Source of the DNA: a virus
Reading direction: 5' to 3' (one strand)
IMG/VR virus record: IMGVR_UViG_3300045988_083892
Span: 1-38,328 of that record
Length of the DNA: 38,328 bases
Both the position numbers and the translations under genes were made by a program. Shown here in pieces: positions 6,268 through 30,068 of this stretch. Every line of letters starts with the position of its first letter. Position 1 is the first letter of the stretch. The notes under the pieces are model-generated. The model made no database searches. It was not told the DNA's origin and saw nothing but the letters and a program-made list of their open reading frames with translations.

Positions 6268-6483
6268 TCAAACCTCCTCAAAGTGGTAGCACTGGCGCAG
6301 GCCGTTCTCAAAGGTGGCCAGAAACCAGCGGTGCGGGATGTTGGTGTAAGTGATGGTGCCGGTTTTCAGGCGGGGATGGTCATCCTCAATTTGAAACGGC
6401 CATGTTCCCCGTGTGCCCAGTGACGGGCGGTGGGGTGTTTCCGGGGCCTGACGGCTGCGGGTGATGCTGTTGTAGCTGCTCAT
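6268..6483 (-). CDS. Hypothetical protein
   Basis: 71-aa ORF coupled by ATGA to the upstream gene. No recognisable motif. Confidence 0.6.
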   Translation of the reverse strand: MSSYNSITRSRQAPETPHRPSLGTRGTWPFQIEDDHPRLKTGTITYTNIPHRWFLATFENGLRQCYHFEEV

Positions 6484-6680
6484 TTTTTACCTCCACAGAG
6501 TTGCCGGGCGAAGGTGGCGGCGGAGATGTAGCCGCCCTTCTGCAAAGGGAAATGGCGCTGAATGGTGCGCAGATCTTTCATGCCGGTGAATTTCCGAATG
6601 TCAGATAGGTTCAGAAGCTGCCGACCGCCGGTAAAGGCGAGGATTTGTTCCAGATTGTCTCGATATGCGGGATGTTCCAT
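6480..6680 (-). CDS. Small putative HTH DNA-binding protein
   Basis: 66 aa. LLNLSDIRKFTGMKDLRTIQRHF looks like a helix-turn-helix. It has a strong AAAGGAGGA RBS and is preceded by copy A of the 22-nt leader motif. Confidence 0.5.
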   Translation of the reverse strand: MEHPAYRDNLEQILAFTGGRQLLNLSDIRKFTGMKDLRTIQRHFPLQKGGYISAATFARQLCGGKK

Positions 6681-7056
6681 AAGGGTCCTCCTTTTTGGGT
6701 ATTGTCGTGATTGCGATTGATGGAGCGATGCGTAGCTAAATTAAGCCGCCGCACTGCCGAGCCTATCTATGCCATGCCGTGGCCTCGCCGAGCCGAGCTA
6801 TTCCGTTGCATTTCCTTGCCTCTGTGCATTGCCTTTGCTAAGCGTTTCTCCGCTTTGCCTTTGCTGTTACCAGCATCGCATAGCATTGCCGTGGCCAATC
6901 TTTGCGTTACATGGCCTTGCCGTTGCTTTGCGCCTCCTGACCTTGCCCAGCCCCTCGTTTCCGTGGCAAATCACCGCCGGGCCATGCTTTGCCGTGGCTT
7001 TTCCGAGCGCCTCACAGCGTTTCCATTGCTTAGCGCCGCGGGACTTCTCCGCTGCG
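6681..7056 (-). repeat. 376-bp ORF-free block with degenerate 9-mer repeats (GCMACGGMA on the transcribed strand)
   Basis: Read on the minus strand: GCCACGGCAAAGC, TGCCACGGAAACG, GCAACGGCAAGGC, GGCCACGGCAATGC, GCAACGGAATAGC and GGCCACGGCATGGC, at irregular 26-86 nt spacing. GCGGAGAA occurs twice. CTAAGC and CTTAGC can pair over about 190 nt. The transcribed strand is very T-poor. Confidence 0.7.
6702..6723 (-). promoter_or_regulatory. Conserved 22-nt leader motif, copy A (sense: CCATCAATCGCAATCACGACAA)
   Basis: One of five near-identical copies, each just 5' of a Shine-Dalgarno sequence. See also 7662, 9305, 12636 and 12849. Confidence 0.6.
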
Positions 7057-7650
7057 TTACTGGATCTCCTCCCAGACGAACCGGCCCTTGCCGCTGTTCC
7101 GCCACTGGCCAATGCCGGAGTACCGTCCATAGTCCAGCCATTCCCGGACGGCCTTCTCGTGATCGTCGCTGAAGCAGACCACCCGGAACTCGCAGGTAGC
7201 GCCTGCGGGGATCTCCTCACTCATGGCAAGGCTGACGCGCTCGCCCTGCGCCGTCTGTGCTCTCAGGGGGCGCTGACACTCGCCAATAGTGCCGTCAAAC
7301 TCCAGCGGGATCACGCGGGGCTCCGGGAAGATCAGCTTGTCGATCTCCTTCTTGTAAGCCTTGATCTTCTCACTGGCCGTGCCCTTGACCTTGCGGAGGC
7401 CGCCGCAGGTATCCTTGAAAAAGCCTTTGATCTGGTAGTCATACAGGAACGGGGTGCCATCCTCCATCCGGGGGAACACCGTCATGGCCTTCTCTGCCAC
7501 GACATCAGCGCCCAGCGCGGAGACTTCCTCCTCCACGGTGGCGGCATCGGGGGACTTGGAGCCAATGAACTCCCGGTAGATCTCCGGGTTGGCCGGGGAC
7601 GTGCCCAGAATTGGCTCGGTGAAGGTGAGCTTTACTTTCAGTTCTTTCAT
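7057..7650 (-). CDS. Hypothetical 197-aa protein with a RAMP-like C-terminal glycine-rich loop
   Basis: Start moved to ATG 7650 (AAGGAGA RBS). The N-terminus is MKELKVKLTFTEPILGTSP. The extreme C-terminus YSGIGQWRNSGKGRFVWEEI resembles the G.G.....G.G loop of Cas5/Cas6/Cas7-type RAMP proteins. No firm family assignment. Confidence 0.75.
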   Translation of the reverse strand: MKELKVKLTFTEPILGTSPANPEIYREFIGSKSPDAATVEEEVSALGADVVAEKAMTVFPRMEDGTPFLYDYQIKGFFKDTCGGLRKVKGTASEKIKAYKKEIDKLIFPEPRVIPLEFDGTIGECQRPLRAQTAQGERVSLAMSEEIPAGATCEFRVVCFSDDHEKAVREWLDYGRYSGIGQWRNSGKGRFVWEEIQ

Positions 7651-7661
7651 GTTGTTTCTCC

Positions 7662-7688
7662 TTTTCGTGATTGCTGATTGCAAGTTGG
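7662..7688 (-). promoter_or_regulatory. Conserved leader motif, copy B (sense: CCAACTTGCAATCAGCAATCACGAAAA)
   Basis: It contains GCAATCA twice in tandem and lies immediately 5' of the RBS of the 7650 gene. Confidence 0.5.
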
Positions 7689-7727: not shown

Positions 7728-8042
7728 ATGAAGAAAATACTGAGCGGAATTTTAGATTTTACGGAATTTGTCCCGTTGGGATGGGTTTTGACCTGTATTG
7801 ATCTGGGGGTTGACTGGATCATAGAATTACCGGTTGAAGGTCTGTTGACCTTGGCAGCAGCAACATTTATCGCCGGAATACTTTCAACATTCGGGTCTTT
7901 TGTTGCGGCTGGCGGGAATTGGGGGAACTCCATGCCAACCGGGCACGATTTGCCCATTGGAGAGCGGATCAGAAACCTTCTGATTATGCTGGCGGTGCTT
8001 GCGTTTATCACCTATGCAATTAGGCTTGCAATGCCATCGTAA
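7728..8042 (+). CDS. Multi-pass membrane protein; lower-GC moron oriented against the early operon (possible superinfection exclusion)
   Basis: 104 aa with several hydrophobic segments (VPLGWVLTCIDLGV, LLTLAAATFIAGILSTFGSFVAA, LLIMLAVLAFITYAI) and a GGGGGGA RBS. It is visibly more AT-rich than its neighbours. Confidence 0.75.
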   Translation: MKKILSGILDFTEFVPLGWVLTCIDLGVDWIIELPVEGLLTLAAATFIAGILSTFGSFVAAGGNWGNSMPTGHDLPIGERIRNLLIMLAVLAFITYAIRLAMPS

Positions 8043-8320
8043 AAAGACTTGCGCGGGCGTTCCTGTTTTGGTAAAATAAGTGCATCCCATTAGAAAGGGG
8101 GCGAGGCCTATCAAAGCTGCGCTTAAAGCGTTTGCCAAGGCAGGCTTTTTGCCTCCCACGCCAGAACACCACCAAACCAGGTGGCGGCCGGTAGGTGGGA
8201 AAACGGAGCTGCAACCGTAAGGATGGCGCGTCAAGATAGAAGCAAGGCCATTCTTTGTCTTAAATTAGGTCAAACCAGACGTAGTTAAGTGCATTGACGC
8301 TTCTGGGAAAGCGCAGGGAG

Positions 8321-8375: not shown

Positions 8376-8576
8376 TTACTTTCTGGGTATAAAAATATTG
8401 TCCATGGGGACGCCGTAAAGATCGCAGAGGGAAAGCAGCTTGTCCGCCGGGGGAAATCGCTTGCCGATCTCCCAATTATAAATCGTGCGGCTGCTGACCC
8501 CAATGGATCTTGCGGCGTCTGCCTGCTTCATTCCACGGTTTACGCGGGCGGCGCGGAGGGTAACTTGAAAGCTCAT
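8376..8576 (-). CDS. Cro-like XRE-family HTH regulator (first gene of the leftward early arm)
   Basis: Start moved to ATG 8576 (AAAGGAG RBS). The HTH is RGMKQADAARSIGVSSRTIYNWEIGKRFP. It is 66 aa and divergent from the cI-like gene. Confidence 0.85.
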   Translation of the reverse strand: MSFQVTLRAARVNRGMKQADAARSIGVSSRTIYNWEIGKRFPPADKLLSLCDLYGVPMDNIFIPRK

Positions 8577-8612
8577 AGCGCGAACTCCTTTCGTTCGATT
8601 TAATCTAACATT

Positions 8613-8641
8613 ATAATACCACCGGCGAAAAGGGATGTCAA
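8613..8641 (-). promoter_or_regulatory. Leftward early promoter
   Basis: On the minus strand: TTGACA (8641..8636), a 17-nt spacer, then TATTAT (8618..8613), with TATAAT also overlapping. Confidence 0.65.
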
Positions 8642-8673
8642 GCAAAAAGTTAGGTTAAAACGAAAAAAAGTTC

Positions 8674-8702
8674 TTGCAATTCGATTTAAAATGACTTACA
8701 AT
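8674..8702 (+). promoter_or_regulatory. Rightward repressor promoter
   Basis: TTGCAA (8674..8679), a 17-nt spacer, then TACAAT (8697..8702). The -10 covers ATG 8701, so the repressor most likely starts at ATG 8731. Confidence 0.6.
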
Positions 8703-8730
8703 GGATTTAACAAAAAAGGGGGTGAAACCA

Positions 8731-9078
8731 ATGGGGCAAGAAGAAATCTGTGCAGTTTTTGCGCGGAATCTAAATAAATTGATGGTCCGGGAAAACCTGA
8801 AGCAAAGCGATCTCGTATTAAAATTGAGCGTGTCGAAAGCGCAGGTATCAGATTGGTGCGCCGGGAAGAACATTCCCAGATCGAACTATCTGGCCGCGCT
8901 GGTAGACCTGTTCGGCTGTCAGCTTTCAGAACTCATGAGCGAAAAACAGCCCGCCCCCACGGATGAGGGCGAGCTGAGCGAAGAGGATAAAAAGCTGCTC
9001 ATGATGATCCACAATCTTTCTCCGGAGAATCGGGCGCGGATCGTTGCGATAATAGAAGCTCTTGCAGGGCTTGAATAG
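8731..9078 (+). CDS. cI-like XRE-family repressor (HTH plus short C-terminal helical tail)
   Basis: Start set to ATG 8731 behind AAGGGGGTGA. The HTH is LKQSDLVLKLSVSKAQVSDWCAGKNIP. An acidic linker follows, then LLMMIHNLSPENRARIVAIIEALAGLE. Confidence 0.85.
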   Translation: MGQEEICAVFARNLNKLMVRENLKQSDLVLKLSVSKAQVSDWCAGKNIPRSNYLAALVDLFGCQLSELMSEKQPAPTDEGELSEEDKKLLMMIHNLSPENRARIVAIIEALAGLE

Positions 9079-9304: not shown

Positions 9305-9326
9305 CCACCAATCGCAATCACGACAA
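9305..9326 (+). promoter_or_regulatory. Conserved 22-nt leader motif, copy E (CCACCAATCGCAATCACGACAA), the only plus-strand copy, upstream of int
   Basis: It matches copy A at 21 of 22 positions. It is followed by AAAGGAGGA and lies 68 nt before the int ATG. Confidence 0.6.
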
Positions 9327-12635: not shown

Positions 12636-12657
12636 TTGTCGTGATTGCGGTTGGTGG
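12636..12657 (-). promoter_or_regulatory. Conserved 22-nt leader motif, copy C (sense: CCACCAACCGCAATCACGACAA)
   Basis: It lies between the stop of the 51-aa ORF and the RBS of the J-domain gene. Confidence 0.6.
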
Positions 12658-14572: not shown

Positions 14573-14648
14573 GGTTTCGTAGCTCAGTCGGAAGAGCGAG
14601 CGGTTGTTAACCGCTGGGTCGCAGGTTCAATCCCTGCCGAAACCGCCA
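14573..14648 (+). tRNA. tRNA-Asn (anticodon GUU) with encoded CCA
   Basis: Hand-folded cloverleaf. Acceptor stem GGTTTCG/CGAAACC; D stem GCTC/GAGC; anticodon stem AGCGG/CCGCT; loop TTGTTAA; 5-nt variable loop; T arm GCAGG-TTCAATC-CCTGC; discriminator G; then CCA. Confidence 0.93.
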
Positions 14649-28067: not shown

Positions 28068-30068
28068 ATGGCAGGGTACTACGATAAAAACAAGGACTAC
28101 TCCAAGGAACTTCAGCGGACGGACCTGTCTGCCTCCGAGCGGGACCGGCTGACCCAGGAGCGGCAGAATAAGATCGACGATAAGTACGGCGGCAGAGAGC
28201 CGAACATGATCGGCTCCGACAAGACGTATTCTCAGACCTACGGCGGGTCCAGCAACCGGGGGAACAGCGGAAGTTCCGGCGGCAGCTCTCAGGGGACCTT
28301 TGGAGGGTATACCTACGACCGCAAGGACAATGGCGGCGGCATCTACGGGACGCCCACCAGCAATTCCGAGGTAAAGAACTACAAGCAAAACGGCGTATCG
28401 TACCGGGTCGGCGCGGACATGAGCCGCCGCGAAGATCTGGCGAACCGGTATCAGGTGTCCAACGGCTATACCGTGTTCTATGACGATAACGGCTATGCCT
28501 ACAAGGCGGTGAAGGGCGCGGCGGACTACACCCCCCATCAGGACATCAACGCCGGGAACGGCAGCTATGGAAAGAGCGGTGCGTGGACGGACAACGAAAT
28601 GATGTCCGCACTGGACCGCTCCAAGATCACGGACATCCGCAACCGGCTACAGCGGGGCGAGATCACCGGCGATCAGGCGAACCAGGCGGCAAACGCCATC
28701 CGTGCCGGATATGGCTACACCATCGACAAGAACGGCTATGTGACAGACAGCGGCGCTCTCGCCGGCGTAAATGACCTGCGCAGGCGGCTGGGGCTTTCCA
28801 CCGGCCCAGAGAGTGCAGAGCTTGACTATTATCGGTATCTCATGGGGACGGACACCTCCCCCGCCGCACAGGCCAGCGGCAAGGTGCAGTCTTTCGGGGA
28901 CTATCTGGCGGCAAATGGCGGCGTGCAGGCTGGGACCTCCGGCTATGGCACACCGGCGTACAGCCAGCAGCGGGTCACGGACATCAATGCAGGGAGCGTG
29001 CCGACGCAGAACTCCGGCGCCGCGCAGACCGGCGTGAGCTTTGACATTGGGGACGGCAGCGACTACTTAAAAGAGCTGTACGCCAAGAAGGTGGCGGCGG
29101 AGCTGGCGGCGCTGAAATCCGCTTACGAGCAGAACACCGCCACACTGGACGCCAGCCGTGCGCAGATCGCGCCGGTGTACGACATTGCCCGGAACAGTGC
29201 GGCCAACCAGAACGCCTTGAGCCGGGGCAGATTTCAGGAGATGGCGGTGGCAAACGGCCTGAACACCGGCACCACCGGACAAGCGGCGCTGGCACAGGAC
29301 GTTGTGCTCCAGCAGAACCTATCCCAGATCGACCGGGAGCAGGCGGAAAAGACGGCGGCTATCGACCTCCAGCGGAGCCAGCTTGACACAGAGTACCGAA
29401 ACGCCATTGCCAAGGCAGAGGCCACGGGAGACGCGGAGCTGGCAAACGCCCTGTATGATGAATACGTCCGGCAACAGAACTTCTACGCCAAGTACGGCGG
29501 GCAGACCGGCGGCTCCGGCTCCGGTTCTTCCGGCGGCAGCGCCGTAGTAAAGCCGACGCTGACTGCCAGTCAGGTACAGTCCGCGCTGAAAAACGGCATC
29601 GTGACGGATGACGTGATCTCCGCTTTCGATTACTACTACGGGCAGGGGGCCTACGATTCTCTGTACGGCACCGGCAAGCTGACCTCCGGCGGGTCCTCCA
29701 GCGGCTCCACCTCCGGGGCCAAGAAGGGCAGCTACTCCAACGGCTCCCTGACCAATCAGCAGGTGAAGCAGCTCCAGAAATACTACGGCGTGTCTCAGGA
29801 CGGCAAGTGGGGGGCCAACTCAAAGAAGGCCGCAGGCGGCCTGACGGCTGATAAGGCATGGGCGAAGTATCAGGGGAGCAGCGGAAGCAGCACCGGCAGC
29901 ATGACGCAGGGCGCTTTCATAGCGTCGGCCACCAGCCTGAACACGGATCTGAGTAACGGCAATGTGGACCGGGCATACAACTGGCTTACCAAGAACTATG
30001 GAAAGCTCTCCGCCAGCCAGAAGCAGGAGGTCCAGAACCTGCTGGCACAGTACGGGATTTCTTACTGA
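28068..30068 (+). CDS. 666-aa virion-associated / ejection-type protein candidate with Gly/Ser linkers and a peptidoglycan-binding-like repeat
   Basis: AAGGAGGG RBS. It has GS-rich linkers and VKQLQKYYGVSQDGKWGANSKKAAGGL (about 29748..29870), which resembles PG_binding_1 (lQ..LG...DG.fG..T). It lies downstream of the lysis genes. Confidence 0.6.
   Translation: MAGYYDKNKDYSKELQRTDLSASERDRLTQERQNKIDDKYGGREPNMIGSDKTYSQTYGGSSNRGNSGSSGGSSQGTFGGYTYDRKDNGGGIYGTPTSNSEVKNYKQNGVSYRVGADMSRREDLANRYQVSNGYTVFYDDNGYAYKAVKGAADYTPHQDINAGNGSYGKSGAWTDNEMMSALDRSKITDIRNRLQRGEITGDQANQAANAIRAGYGYTIDKNGYVTDSGALAGVNDLRRRLGLSTGPESAELDYYRYLMGTDTSPAAQASGKVQSFGDYLAANGGVQAGTSGYGTPAYSQQRVTDINAGSVPTQNSGAAQTGVSFDIGDGSDYLKELYAKKVAAELAALKSAYEQNTATLDASRAQIAPVYDIARNSAANQNALSRGRFQEMAVANGLNTGTTGQAALAQDVVLQQNLSQIDREQAEKTAAIDLQRSQLDTEYRNAIAKAEATGDAELANALYDEYVRQQNFYAKYGGQTGGSGSGSSGGSAVVKPTLTASQVQSALKNGIVTDDVISAFDYYYGQGAYDSLYGTGKLTSGGSSSGSTSGAKKGSYSNGSLTNQQVKQLQKYYGVSQDGKWGANSKKAAGGLTADKAWAKYQGSSGSSTGSMTQGAFIASATSLNTDLSNGNVDRAYNWLTKNYGKLSASQKQEVQNLLAQYGISY

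What the first reader, a model, noticed from the sequence alone, without database searches (positions are those of the whole stretch)
6681..7056. 376-bp T-poor non-coding block with six degenerate GCMACGGMA boxes inside the early operon
Two co-oriented early genes are separated by 376 bp with no credible ORF. Elsewhere in this arm, genes overlap by ATGA.

On the transcribed strand the block is G/A/C-rich and about 10% T by eye. It carries GCCACGGCA-type 9-mers six times, GCTCGG three times and GCGGAGAA twice. A CTAAGC / CTTAGC pair could close a roughly 190-nt domain. The block ends in copy A of the 22-nt leader motif.

The irregular spacing (26-86 nt) argues against a CRISPR array. An iteron field (origin or partition-like site), a protein-binding RNA, or a processed non-coding RNA all remain possible.
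Basis: partly seen in the sequence, partly recalled or inferred. Interest (0 to 1): 0.65.

Follow-up and report, generated by a model that had tools for sequence, protein, structure and literature searches.

The report
Phage VIPR guide-RNA repeat array
The "non-coding block" is a phased array of about 63 five-letter repeats next to a small Cas7-like protein, which matches the phage VIPR RNA-guided DNA-silencing system first described in 2026 preprints; it is real and functional, but its kind is already known.

Summary
In detail: 6681..7056 is non-coding, has 13% T on the transcribed (minus) strand, and carries six GCMACGGMA boxes.

The boxes are only the visible part of a larger pattern. The block is a lattice of about 63 pentanucleotide units, G-[C/A]-N-N-N, with one extra G about every six units. 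The Fourier period is 5.1-5.15 nt, there is no codon periodicity, and the signal occurs nowhere else in the window.

The upstream gene (7057..7650, 197 aa) models as a minimal Cas7-type RAMP. It aligns with the solved Vipr protein of phage SUSP1 (hhalign E 1.4e-5).

In about 150 of 164 related loci (53-99% protein identity) the same gene touches such an array. The array lies downstream or upstream, and its phased G is always on the gene's sense strand. No other gene is conserved.

Among related arrays the G hardly changes, while positions 4-5 change 4-6 times more often.

This fits VIPR: Vipr protomers coat a pentanucleotide-repeat vrRNA whose variable bases read the DNA of competing phages.

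This locus differs from the characterised type. It has a single G rather than GGY, no interspersed tails and no conserved accessory gene. I found no targets and had no RNA data.

The parts
7057..7650 (-). vipr-like gene (gene A): a 197-aa minimal single-RRM RAMP with a glycine-rich loop (GIGQWRNSGKGRF) and a conserved thumb-like loop (QRPLRAQTAQGERV).
   Evidence: AF2 model: pLDDT 71.8, pTM 0.71. The top 50 Foldseek PDB hits are all type VII Cas7, Csm3, Csm5 or Cas7-11, with E down to 4e-6 and TM about 0.53. The family profile hits type VII Cas7 (E 4.8e-5), Csm4 (1.7e-3) and the SUSP1 Vipr chain 36pp_D (0.36). hhalign against SUSP1 Vipr: probability 80%, E 1.4e-5, 173 aligned columns. No Pfam, PHROG, NCBIfam or PADLOC family matches. 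Coding periodicity of 3.0 nt.
6727..7056 (-). Candidate vrRNA array: about 63 head-to-tail units, mostly 5-mers G-[C/A]-N-N-N with about 12 six-mers. It starts directly after the vipr stop codon (TAA-C-GCAGCG-G...).
   Evidence: Autocorrelation and Fourier period of 5.1-5.15 nt. Viterbi segmentation. Unique in the window. No terminator-like site lies between the early promoter and the block on the minus strand.
6777..7029 (-). Nine GCNANGG punctuation boxes, with 5' ends at 7029, 6998, 6967, 6926, 6895, 6864, 6838, 6809 and 6783. Each adds one nucleotide (a second G) to the 5-nt lattice.
   Evidence: Positions and spacings of 31, 31, 41, 31, 31, 26, 29 and 26 nt. Across 126 arrays, six-mers recur every 5, 6 or 7 units in 77% of cases, against 20% expected if placed at random. 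Positions G1, C2 and G6 of the six-mers change in only 0.4-1.0% of aligned pairs.
6687..6770 (-). 3' flank of the array, conserved in the closest clade (ATAGATAGGCTCGGCAGTGCGGCGGCTTAnnTTAGCTACGCA...CAATCGCAATCACGACAA...AAGGAGG). It is either a candidate 3' tail or simply the 5' UTR of the next gene.
   Evidence: It is conserved in 17 distinct relatives whose arrays otherwise differ. RNAalifold predicts a hairpin, but 0 of 17 pairs show compensatory change.
6702..6723 (-). Copy A of the 22-nt leader motif CCAYCAAYCGCAATCACGACAA.
   Evidence: The core occurs as four exact copies in the window, each 10-15 nt before a Shine-Dalgarno sequence. No link to VIPR is shown.
8613..8641 (-). Early leftward promoter-like site (TTGACA-17-TATTAT with TG) upstream of the cro-like gene. 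It is the likely source of transcription through vipr and the array.
   Evidence: Matches 11 of 12 consensus positions. The sequence was read. That transcription reaches the block is an inference.
6480..6680 (-). Gene B: a 66-aa protein immediately after the array. It is not shown to belong to the system.
   Evidence: Present after the array in only 20 of 164 loci. No Pfam or PHROG hit. The AF2 model has pLDDT 86, but no significant structural match was found (E >= 0.29).

Best explanation
The block plus the gene upstream of it is a VIPR (Viral Interference Programmable Repeat) module carried by a temperate siphovirus-like phage of gut Oscillospiraceae.

Shown here:
- The block is a phase-locked array of about 63 pentanucleotide repeats with an invariant G.
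- It sits next to a Cas7-like RAMP gene that is homologous to Vipr.
- The pair is inherited together across at least 150 loci. The array lies on either side of the gene but always on its sense strand.
- The invariant G is conserved, while repeat positions 4-5 turn over fast.

Inferred by homology with the SUSP1 system (bioRxiv 10.64898/2026.04.26.720920 and .720927):
- The array is transcribed with the early operon.
- One Vipr protomer binds each repeat and forms a helical filament. It holds the G between the thumb arginine and the G-loop tryptophan, and holds the following C/A near the G-loop arginine.
- The variable bases are exposed and pair with double-stranded DNA of a competing phage or mobile element, which silences its transcription.

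Speculative: the GCNANGG boxes, which recur about every 31 nt (six repeats), may mark boundaries or register shifts between successive guides. Their spacing coincides with the six-protomer helical turn reported for the SUSP1 filament.
For: RAMP/Cas7 fold.

Homology to SUSP1 Vipr: full-length hhalign with E 1.4e-5. The G-loop aligns as GVGDWRPRFGRF against GIGQWRNSGKGRF. W and R, which contact G2 and Y3 in SUSP1, are kept. D177, which reads G1, is Q here. That matches the loss of the first G in these repeats.

Pentanucleotide array:
- Period 5.10-5.25 nt in nearly all 83 viral and about 74 of 80 genomic loci.
- Position weights are G 97% at position 1 and C 58% / A 30% at position 2.
- The preprint lists YNNNG and NNNNG repeats as alternative vrRNA forms.

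Linkage and orientation:
- Gene A is the only gene family present in all 164 loci.
- The array is upstream in about 12 loci and on both sides in several.
- The phased base is G on the sense strand in all of the roughly 90 blocks examined.

Constraint pattern: in 5-mers, substitutions run 2.4% at position 1 against 10.7-15.1% at positions 4-5.

Not a structured RNA and not coding.

Phage context: integrase, cI/cro-like genes, TerL, portal, major capsid protein and endolysin.
Against: - Transcription, processing and protein binding are therefore untested.
- The repeat has a single conserved G, not the canonical GGY.
- The period is 5.16 nt, not the 5.0 nt of the SUSP1 arrays. The parts of the preprints I could read do not describe the extra-G punctuation.
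- No repeated structured tail is present. The conserved 3' flank has no covariation support.
- No accessory (vap) gene is conserved.
- No DNA target was found under any of 24 pairing rules in 1.1 Mb of related phage loci. None was found in 50,697 phage genomes under a contiguous 3-nt rule.
- Similarity to SUSP1 Vipr is remote: hhalign probability is 80%, and phmmer alone gives E 0.36.
- The AF2 model has only moderate confidence.
Confidence: 0.85

Rival explanations
1. A DNA-level element. The block would be an iteron, centromere or origin array on double-stranded DNA, read every half helical turn by gene A's product or by a host protein.
For: Twice the lattice period is 10.3 bp, close to the B-DNA helical repeat. 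The lattice is phase-locked: the residual is 0.45 nt against 0.89 nt in shuffles, and the mean unit is 5.158 +/- 0.025 nt in 126 arrays. The block lies next to the replication and recombination module. Initiator-plus-iteron pairs are also tightly linked.
Against: The partner protein has an RNA-binding RAMP fold related to Vipr. No Rep or ParA partner is conserved. All units in all arrays point the same way relative to the gene, even when the array has moved upstream. There is no adjacent AT-rich unwinding region. The phage integrates (integrase), so it has no obvious need for a partition site.
Confidence: 0.05
2. A decoy or sponge RNA. The transcript would titrate a host RNA-binding protein, such as CsrA through its A(N)GGA-like boxes, or host CRISPR RAMP subunits, rather than guiding DNA recognition.
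For: About half of the six-mer boxes read A(N)GGA (ACGGAA, AAGGAA, ATGGAA). The density of one box per roughly 31 nt resembles multi-site sponge RNAs (my recollection of CsrB). No DNA targets were found.
Against: The other half of the boxes read GGCA. The G-N4 lattice between boxes is unexplained by CsrA. A sponge model does not predict the tight linkage with a Vipr homologue. The hypervariable positions 4-5 fit a programmable guide better than a fixed decoy.
Confidence: 0.05
3. A structured or processed regulatory RNA, such as an antitermination or leader element with a roughly 190-nt closed domain, acting in cis on the early operon.
For: The block lies inside the early operon just after the cro-like gene. 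GCTAAGC and GCTTAGC are complementary.
Against: Folding energy equals that of shuffles: z = -0.39 for the window and mean z = -0.14 over 80 arrays. No Rfam family matches. Array sequences cannot be aligned between relatives, and array length varies from about 130 to 1000 nt.
Confidence: 0.03
4. A decayed pseudogene or a neutral microsatellite with no function.
For: Length varies between close relatives, which is typical of slippage-prone repeats.
Against: There is no 3-nt periodicity. The G lattice and GCNANGG boxes are conserved in relatives down to 53% protein identity and across several bacterial classes, while the remaining positions are free to change. The period is the same everywhere.
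Confidence: 0.02

Closest known systems
VIPR type II (Escherichia phage SUSP1 and a Pseudomonas fulva prophage), bioRxiv 10.64898/2026.04.26.720920 and 10.64898/2026.04.26.720927
   Same: Both are phage-encoded. Both have a minimal RAMP of about 20 kDa with a G-loop (xWR motif) and a thumb arginine. In both, the gene is flanked by same-strand tandem pentanucleotide repeats with conserved G positions and hypervariable positions. The SUSP1 filament has one protomer per repeat and six protomers per turn.
   Different: - The repeat here is G-[C/A]-N-N-N with a single G, whereas SUSP1 has GGY/NN.
- The G-loop residue Asp177 of SUSP1 is Gln here.
- The array here is one uninterrupted run of about 330 nt (130-1000 nt in relatives). 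SUSP1 has roughly 100-nt vrRNAs of 9-16 repeats, each capped by a structured tail.
- The lattice period is 5.16 nt with an extra G about every six repeats, against exactly 5.0 nt in SUSP1.
- No vap gene is conserved here.
Other VIPR types with NNNGG, YNNNG or NNNNG repeats and 'staggered arrays with overlapping vrRNAs' (same preprint: methods and legends of fig. S17-S18)
   Same: The preprint states that alternative repeat forms exist. [quoted passage not shown] This is the closest textual match to a continuous array with 1-nt register shifts.
   Different: The figures and data tables were not available to me. I could not check whether this Oscillospiraceae clade, its roughly 31-nt superperiod or its GCNANGG boxes are what is drawn there. 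The preprint says the staggered architecture was not among those confirmed by sRNA-seq.
Class 1 CRISPR Cas7 backbone on crRNA (Csm3, type VII Cas7)
   Same: The RRM, G-loop and thumb fold is shared, as is the logic of one protomer per fixed RNA increment.
   Different: There are no CRISPR repeats or spacers, no other cas genes, and no Cas6, Cas5 or Cas10. The increment is 5 nt, not 6 nt. The RNA itself is periodic.
TRAP binding to (G/U)AG repeats in the Bacillus trp leader (a works-like comparison only; from my own knowledge)
   Same: A protein oligomer reads a short conserved motif that recurs every 5-6 nt on single-stranded RNA.
   Different: The fold is unrelated. TRAP is a closed 11-mer ring with 11 repeats and has a regulatory role in cis. 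No variable positions are read out.
Iteron or centromere arrays bound by ribbon-helix-helix proteins (for example ParR-parC, ParG-parH; from my own knowledge)
   Same: Both are dense direct repeats of a very short degenerate motif, placed next to the gene of the binding protein.
   Different: Those act on double-stranded DNA, usually together with a ParA or ParM partner. Their periods are whole numbers of base pairs. The partner here is a RAMP, and the orientation relative to transcription is fixed.

Membership tests
VIPR system | Vipr protein: a small (about 20 kDa) single-RRM RAMP with a glycine-rich loop and a thumb | tested here: met
   The protein is 197 aa. The AF2 model's top 50 PDB matches are all Cas7-family RAMPs. 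The profile hits type VII Cas7 (E 4.8e-5) and Csm4. The G-loop GIGQWRNSGKGRF and the loop QRPLRAQTAQGERV are nearly invariant.
VIPR system | Sequence homology to an experimentally characterised Vipr (SUSP1) | tested here: met
   The A2 profile picks ORF 28474..29061(-) as its best hit in the SUSP1 genome (E 2e-4). hhalign gives probability 80%, E 1.4e-5 and 173 aligned columns end to end. The relationship is remote but collinear. PDB chain 36pp_D ('SUSP1 Vipr protein') scores E 0.36 in the profile search.
VIPR system | The vipr gene is flanked by long intergenic regions that carry tandem pentanucleotide repeats on the same strand | tested here: met
   This holds for the window. It also holds for nearly all 83 viral loci and about 74 of 80 genomic loci. 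The array lies downstream or upstream, and G is always phased on the sense strand.
VIPR system | Repeat consensus GGY/NN (YNNGG) | tested here: not met
   Position 1 is G in 97% of units. The neighbouring position is C 58%, A 30% and G only 3%. A GG doublet occurs only at the six-mer boxes. The preprint accepts NNNGG, YNNNG and NNNNG as alternative vrRNA forms, and this array fits the YNNNG/NNNNG form.
VIPR system | Scaffold positions are conserved and guide positions are hypervariable among relatives | tested here: met
   In 438 aligned array segments, the substitution frequency is 2.4% at G, 8% at positions 2-3, 10.7% at position 4 and 15.1% at position 5. The pairs are not phylogenetically independent.
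VIPR system | vrRNAs are expressed, processed to discrete species, and co-purify with Vipr | not testable with these tools
The only indirect support is a promoter upstream and no terminator-like site before the block.
VIPR system | A structured, invariant 3' tail caps each vrRNA (type II) | tested here: inconclusive
   There are no repeated tails inside the array. One conserved 3' flank of about 80 nt exists in the close clade, but 0 of its 17 predicted pairs show compensatory change. Array folding energy equals that of shuffles.
VIPR system | An accessory vap gene lies next to vipr | tested here: not met
   No gene family other than gene A is shared by more than 93 of 164 loci, and that family is the cro/cI-like HTH upstream. 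Gene B follows the array in only 20 loci and has no recognisable DNA-binding fold. The preprint says loci 'typically' have a vap gene, so this feature is not strictly defining.
VIPR system | The variable bases match DNA of competing phages or mobile elements under a gapped code | tested here: inconclusive
   I tested 24 pairing rules against 1.1 Mb of related loci. There were no long matches beyond shuffled controls, and only a mild excess of short contiguous 3-nt-per-unit matches. blastn of the concatenated triplets against 50,697 phage genomes gave nothing below E 0.05. The databases were small, and the code for this repeat type is unknown.
VIPR system | Encoded by a virus or provirus | tested here: met
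   The window carries an integrase, cI/cro-like genes, RusA, SSB, an exonuclease, TerL, a portal protein, a major capsid protein and an endolysin. Relatives are IMG/VR contigs and prophage regions of Oscillospiraceae and other Clostridia MAGs.
CRISPR array | Identical direct repeats of 23-50 nt separated by unique spacers of similar length, with cas genes nearby | tested here: not met
   The repeat finder gives only degenerate 31-nt families at 61-71% identity. The true unit is 5 nt. No other cas-like gene is present.
Iteron origin or partition site | Direct repeats bound as double-stranded DNA by a Rep or centromere-binding protein, with an AT-rich region or a ParA-type partner | tested here: not met
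   No Rep or ParA gene is conserved next to the array. The GC content of the block is 54-58%, with no AT-rich flank. The partner has a RAMP fold. DNA binding itself is not testable here.

The most novel reading that the evidence does not exclude
This very abundant gut-phage clade (more than 8000 protein clusters at 90% identity) may be a VIPR architecture that has not yet been characterised. Four features set it apart:
- It recognises a single G, and the G-loop Asp is replaced by Gln.
- It has three variable bases per repeat, which implies a pairing code different from the published 'NN plus 1-nt skip' rule.
- Its arrays are uninterrupted runs of 60-200 repeats.
- The arrays are phase-locked to a 5.16-nt lattice by strongly conserved GCNANGG boxes about every six repeats. 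That spacing matches one helical turn of the Vipr filament, so the boxes may set guide boundaries or filament register.
Probability: 0.3. Interest if true: 0.6.

Novelty: new member of a known kind. Interest (0 to 1): 0.45.

Why it matters
VIPR was proposed in 2026 as an RNA-guided DNA-recognition system older than CRISPR. It reads DNA through a non-contiguous code and needs only one small protein and one RNA.

This window places such a module in the early operon of a temperate phage of human-gut Oscillospiraceae. Its relatives are extremely common in gut metagenomes, so inter-phage silencing of this kind may be widespread in the gut virome.

The single-G repeat, the Asp-to-Gln change in the G-loop and the punctuation about every 31 nt give concrete handles for two questions. 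One is how the recognition code varies between VIPR types. The other is how long arrays are divided into guides.

There is also a practical point for annotation. T-poor periodic blocks of this kind produce spurious ORFs that cluster between genomes.

Tried and rejected
- **Rfam.** At gathering thresholds only the tRNA-Asn matched.
- **Structured-RNA hypothesis.** The window z-score is -0.39. Over 80 arrays the mean z is -0.14, so there is no selection either for or against structure.
- **Tail hairpin.** No covariation was found.
- **Curated protein libraries for gene A** (Pfam, PHROG, NCBIfam, PADLOC). Nothing significant matched. The only traces were sub-threshold hits on the G-loop of Cas6 and Csm4.
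- **Conserved partner gene (vap).** None was found. Gene B was modelled with confidence (pLDDT 86) but has no significant structural neighbour.
- **Target prediction.** I tested dinucleotide and trinucleotide read-outs at every offset with 0-3 skipped bases, using exact seeds and extended scoring against 1.1 Mb of related loci. There was no tail excess over shuffled-unit controls. A mild excess for contiguous n3n4n5 (k=4: 2102 against 1806 +/- 74) did not extend to long matches, so I treat it as unproven. A 20/20 hit in L111 falls next to that locus's own array and was dismissed.
- **blastn of the concatenated triplets against INPHARED.** Only chance-level hits were returned.
- **Early ideas dropped after the fold search.** These were a CsrA sponge, TRAP-like attenuation, a Chi-site array, a DGR or retron template (no reverse transcriptase is present), and DNA helical phasing as the primary constraint.

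Full report
**What is in the sequence**

All genes in this arm run on the minus strand. Gene A (7057..7650) ends in TAA at 7057, and the next gene (6480..6680) starts 376 nt later.

On the transcribed strand the block has 13% T, against 19.8% for the arm. The six GCMACGGMA boxes are real and all lie on that strand. About 2.2 matches would be expected in the whole window. GCGGAGAA occurs twice in the block and GCTCGG four times. The observation therefore stands.

**The real pattern**

- Autocorrelation of the block peaks at lags 5, 10/11, 16, 21, 26, 31, 36 and 41, with z up to 8.4.
- The Fourier maximum is at 5.1-5.15 nt with power 7.8. The best of 200 shuffles reaches 4.1.
- There is no 3-nt signal in the block, whereas gene A shows a clean 3.0-nt coding period.
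- A scan of all 38 kb finds this periodicity only at 6681..7060.

I segmented the block with a simple unit model. With the consensus GCNANGG there are nine, spaced 31, 31, 41, 31, 31, 26, 29 and 26 nt. The apparent irregular spacing came from too narrow a consensus.

**Relatives**

Three GenBank gut-phage records keep gene A at about 76% nucleotide identity. Each is followed by a T-poor block of a different length that cannot be aligned to this one.

I then collected two larger sets:
- 80 IMG/VR loci.
- 80 loci from bacterial genomes and MAGs with 96% down to 53% protein identity. Most are Oscillospiraceae and other Clostridia, and the nearest is a Dysosmobacter MAG. Some are Coriobacteriia and one is a Synergistaceae MAG.

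Nearly every locus has a periodic block that touches gene A, and the best period is 5.10-5.25 nt everywhere. The block is usually just after the stop codon. In about 12 loci it lies just before the start codon, and in several it is on both sides. In all of the roughly 90 blocks examined, the phased base is G on gene A's sense strand.

Clustering all ORFs within 4 kb of gene A shows that gene A is the only family present in all 164 loci. The next real family is a cro/cI-like HTH, found upstream in 93 loci. The protein and the array are therefore a self-contained two-part module with a fixed strand relationship.

**Fine structure of the arrays**

In 126 non-redundant arrays the mean unit length is 5.158 +/- 0.025 nt. 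Six-mers recur every 5, 6 or 7 units in 77% of cases, against 20% for random placement. Unit starts deviate from a perfect lattice by 0.45 nt, against 0.89 nt when unit order is shuffled.

I tallied substitutions in 438 aligned segments of related arrays:

| Unit type | Position | Sites changed |
|---|---|---|
| 5-mer | 1 (G) | 2.4% |
| 5-mer | 2-3 | about 8% |
| 5-mer | 4 | 10.7% |
| 5-mer | 5 | 15.1% |
| 6-mer | G1, C2, G6 | 0.4-1.0% |

The result is a conserved scaffold with hypervariable positions, plus strongly constrained punctuation.

Folding energies do not differ from dinucleotide shuffles. The window gives z = -0.39, and 80 arrays give a mean z of -0.14. This argues against a structured RNA and against the proposed CTAAGC/CTTAGC domain.

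**The protein**

Gene A has no Pfam, PHROG, NCBIfam or PADLOC family. It nevertheless belongs to a very large family, with more than 8000 clusters at 90% identity and 1805 at 50%.

- An AF2 model (pLDDT 71.8, pTM 0.71) matches only Cas7-type RAMPs in the PDB: type VII Cas7, Csm3, Csm5 and Cas7-11. E-values go down to 4e-6 and TM is about 0.53.
- A family profile hits type VII Cas7 (E 4.8e-5), Csm4 (1.7e-3) and, weakly, a chain deposited as 'SUSP1 Vipr protein'.
- In BFVD, a 66%-identical viral protein is already labelled 'Cas system-associated RAMP superfamily protein'.

**Identification with VIPR**

The Vipr hit led to two 2026 preprints. VIPR systems consist of a minimal, phage-encoded RAMP (Vipr) and vrRNAs made of tandem pentanucleotide repeats. 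In these repeats a conserved GGY alternates with hypervariable NN. The NN bases read double-stranded DNA with a one-nucleotide skip and silence competing phages or satellites.

The methods section states that other clades use NNNGG, YNNNG or NNNNG repeats. A supplementary figure legend describes 'staggered' arrays in which one vrRNA ends where the next begins.

The cryo-EM paper reports the following:
- One protomer binds per repeat.
- The filament is a right-handed helix with six protomers per turn, or five when DNA is bound.
- G1 is read by H17 and D177.
- G2 is held by thumb R138 and G-loop W178.
- Y3 is held by R179.

I fetched the SUSP1 genome and located its vipr gene at 28474..29061(-), the best hit of my profile. 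Aligning it gave hhalign probability 80%, E 1.4e-5 and 173 columns end to end. The G-loops align as GVGDWRPRFGRF against GIGQWRNSGKGRF. The tryptophan and arginine are kept, and the aspartate that reads the first G is glutamine here. That fits arrays that have lost the first G.

**Where this locus differs from the characterised type**

- SUSP1 arrays have an exact 5.0-nt period and separate vrRNAs of about 100 nt, each with a structured tail.
- Here the array is continuous and follows a 5.16-nt lattice with GCNANGG boxes.
- There is only one conserved 3' flank of about 80 nt in the close clade, and it lacks covariation support.
- No accessory gene is conserved. The 66-aa gene after the array has no recognisable DNA-binding fold.

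The box spacing of about six repeats coincides with the six-protomer turn of the filament. I note this as a coincidence worth testing, not as a finding.

**Function**

By homology, the most likely mechanism has three steps:
1. The early leftward promoter (8641..8613, 11 of 12 consensus matches; no terminator-like site before the block) transcribes vipr and the array.
2. Vipr coats the repeats.
3. The exposed variable bases guide the filament to DNA of a competitor.

I tried to find targets. I tested 24 read-out rules against 1.1 Mb of related phage loci, and a BLAST search of the concatenated variable triplets against 50,697 phage genomes. Neither gave anything beyond controls. Transcription, processing, binding and targeting therefore all remain inferred.

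**Rivals**

- A double-stranded iteron or centromere reading is suggested by 2 x 5.16 = 10.3 bp and by the phase locking. It is disfavoured by the RAMP partner, the fixed strand orientation, and the lack of a Rep or ParA partner.
- A sponge RNA, a structured cis-regulator and a decayed pseudogene are each contradicted by the linkage, folding or conservation data.

**Verdict**

The feature is real, non-random and functional. It is best filed as a new member of the recently described VIPR systems, of the single-G (YNNNG/NNNNG) repeat form. The iteron option and the closed-domain idea were not. Novelty is limited by the 2026 preprints. Whether the 5.16-nt lattice and its punctuation are already covered by the preprint's 'staggered array' class could not be checked, because I could not see the supplementary figures or data tables, only the figure legends.

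Noticed in passing
6702..6723 (-), 7665..7674 (-), 9314..9323 (+), 12639..12648 (-): The leader motif CCAYCAAYCGCAATCACGACAA has an exact core, GCAATCACGA, present four times. Each copy sits 10-15 nt upstream of a Shine-Dalgarno sequence: before gene B, before vipr, about 70 nt before the integrase, and before the 12110..12613 gene. It could be a shared translation or processing signal, or a module-junction sequence. With one mismatch allowed, the count (5) is not significant against shuffles (17 of 100 shuffles reach it), but the extended similarity and consistent placement are striking.
   Followed up: partly
7728..8042 (+): A 104-aa ORF that reads as hydrophobic, membrane-like, by eye lies antisense between the cro-like gene and vipr. 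It looks like a moron inserted in the early operon, with a terminator-like hairpin at 8130..8145 (+).
   Followed up: no
8376..9078: Immunity region. It holds a cro-like HTH (8376..8578/8645, minus strand), a divergent cI-like HTH (8701..9078, plus strand), and a near-consensus promoter between them (TTGACA-17-TATTAT, 8641..8613, minus strand).
   Followed up: partly
14573..14648 (+): A tRNA-Asn (GTT) gene lies between the integrase/regulatory region and the structural genes.
   Followed up: no
6711..7172 (+), 6769..7677 (+), 6867..7220 (-): Long spurious ORFs run through the T-poor periodic block. Equivalent ORFs in other loci cluster with each other by BLAST (clusters 3 and 5), so automated annotation may call them conserved hypothetical proteins.
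   Followed up: partly
L087, L100, L104, L111, L121, L154, L158, L163; L108; L162: Some relatives carry arrays on both sides of vipr. L108 has an array of about 1040 nt, and L162 has about 1.3 kb of array upstream. A few loci (L086, L149, L157) have the gene but no detectable array.
   Followed up: partly
L111, L119, L128, L142 (arrays of low-GC relatives): In these arrays T rises to 24-31% and C falls to 8-15%, yet the G lattice persists.
   Followed up: partly
7056..7040 (-) and the equivalent position in most loci: Arrays begin immediately after the vipr stop codon with a box (TAA-C-GCAGCGG / GCGACGG / GCAACGG). This start is conserved even where the rest of the array differs, which suggests a fixed 5' start of the array.
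   Followed up: no
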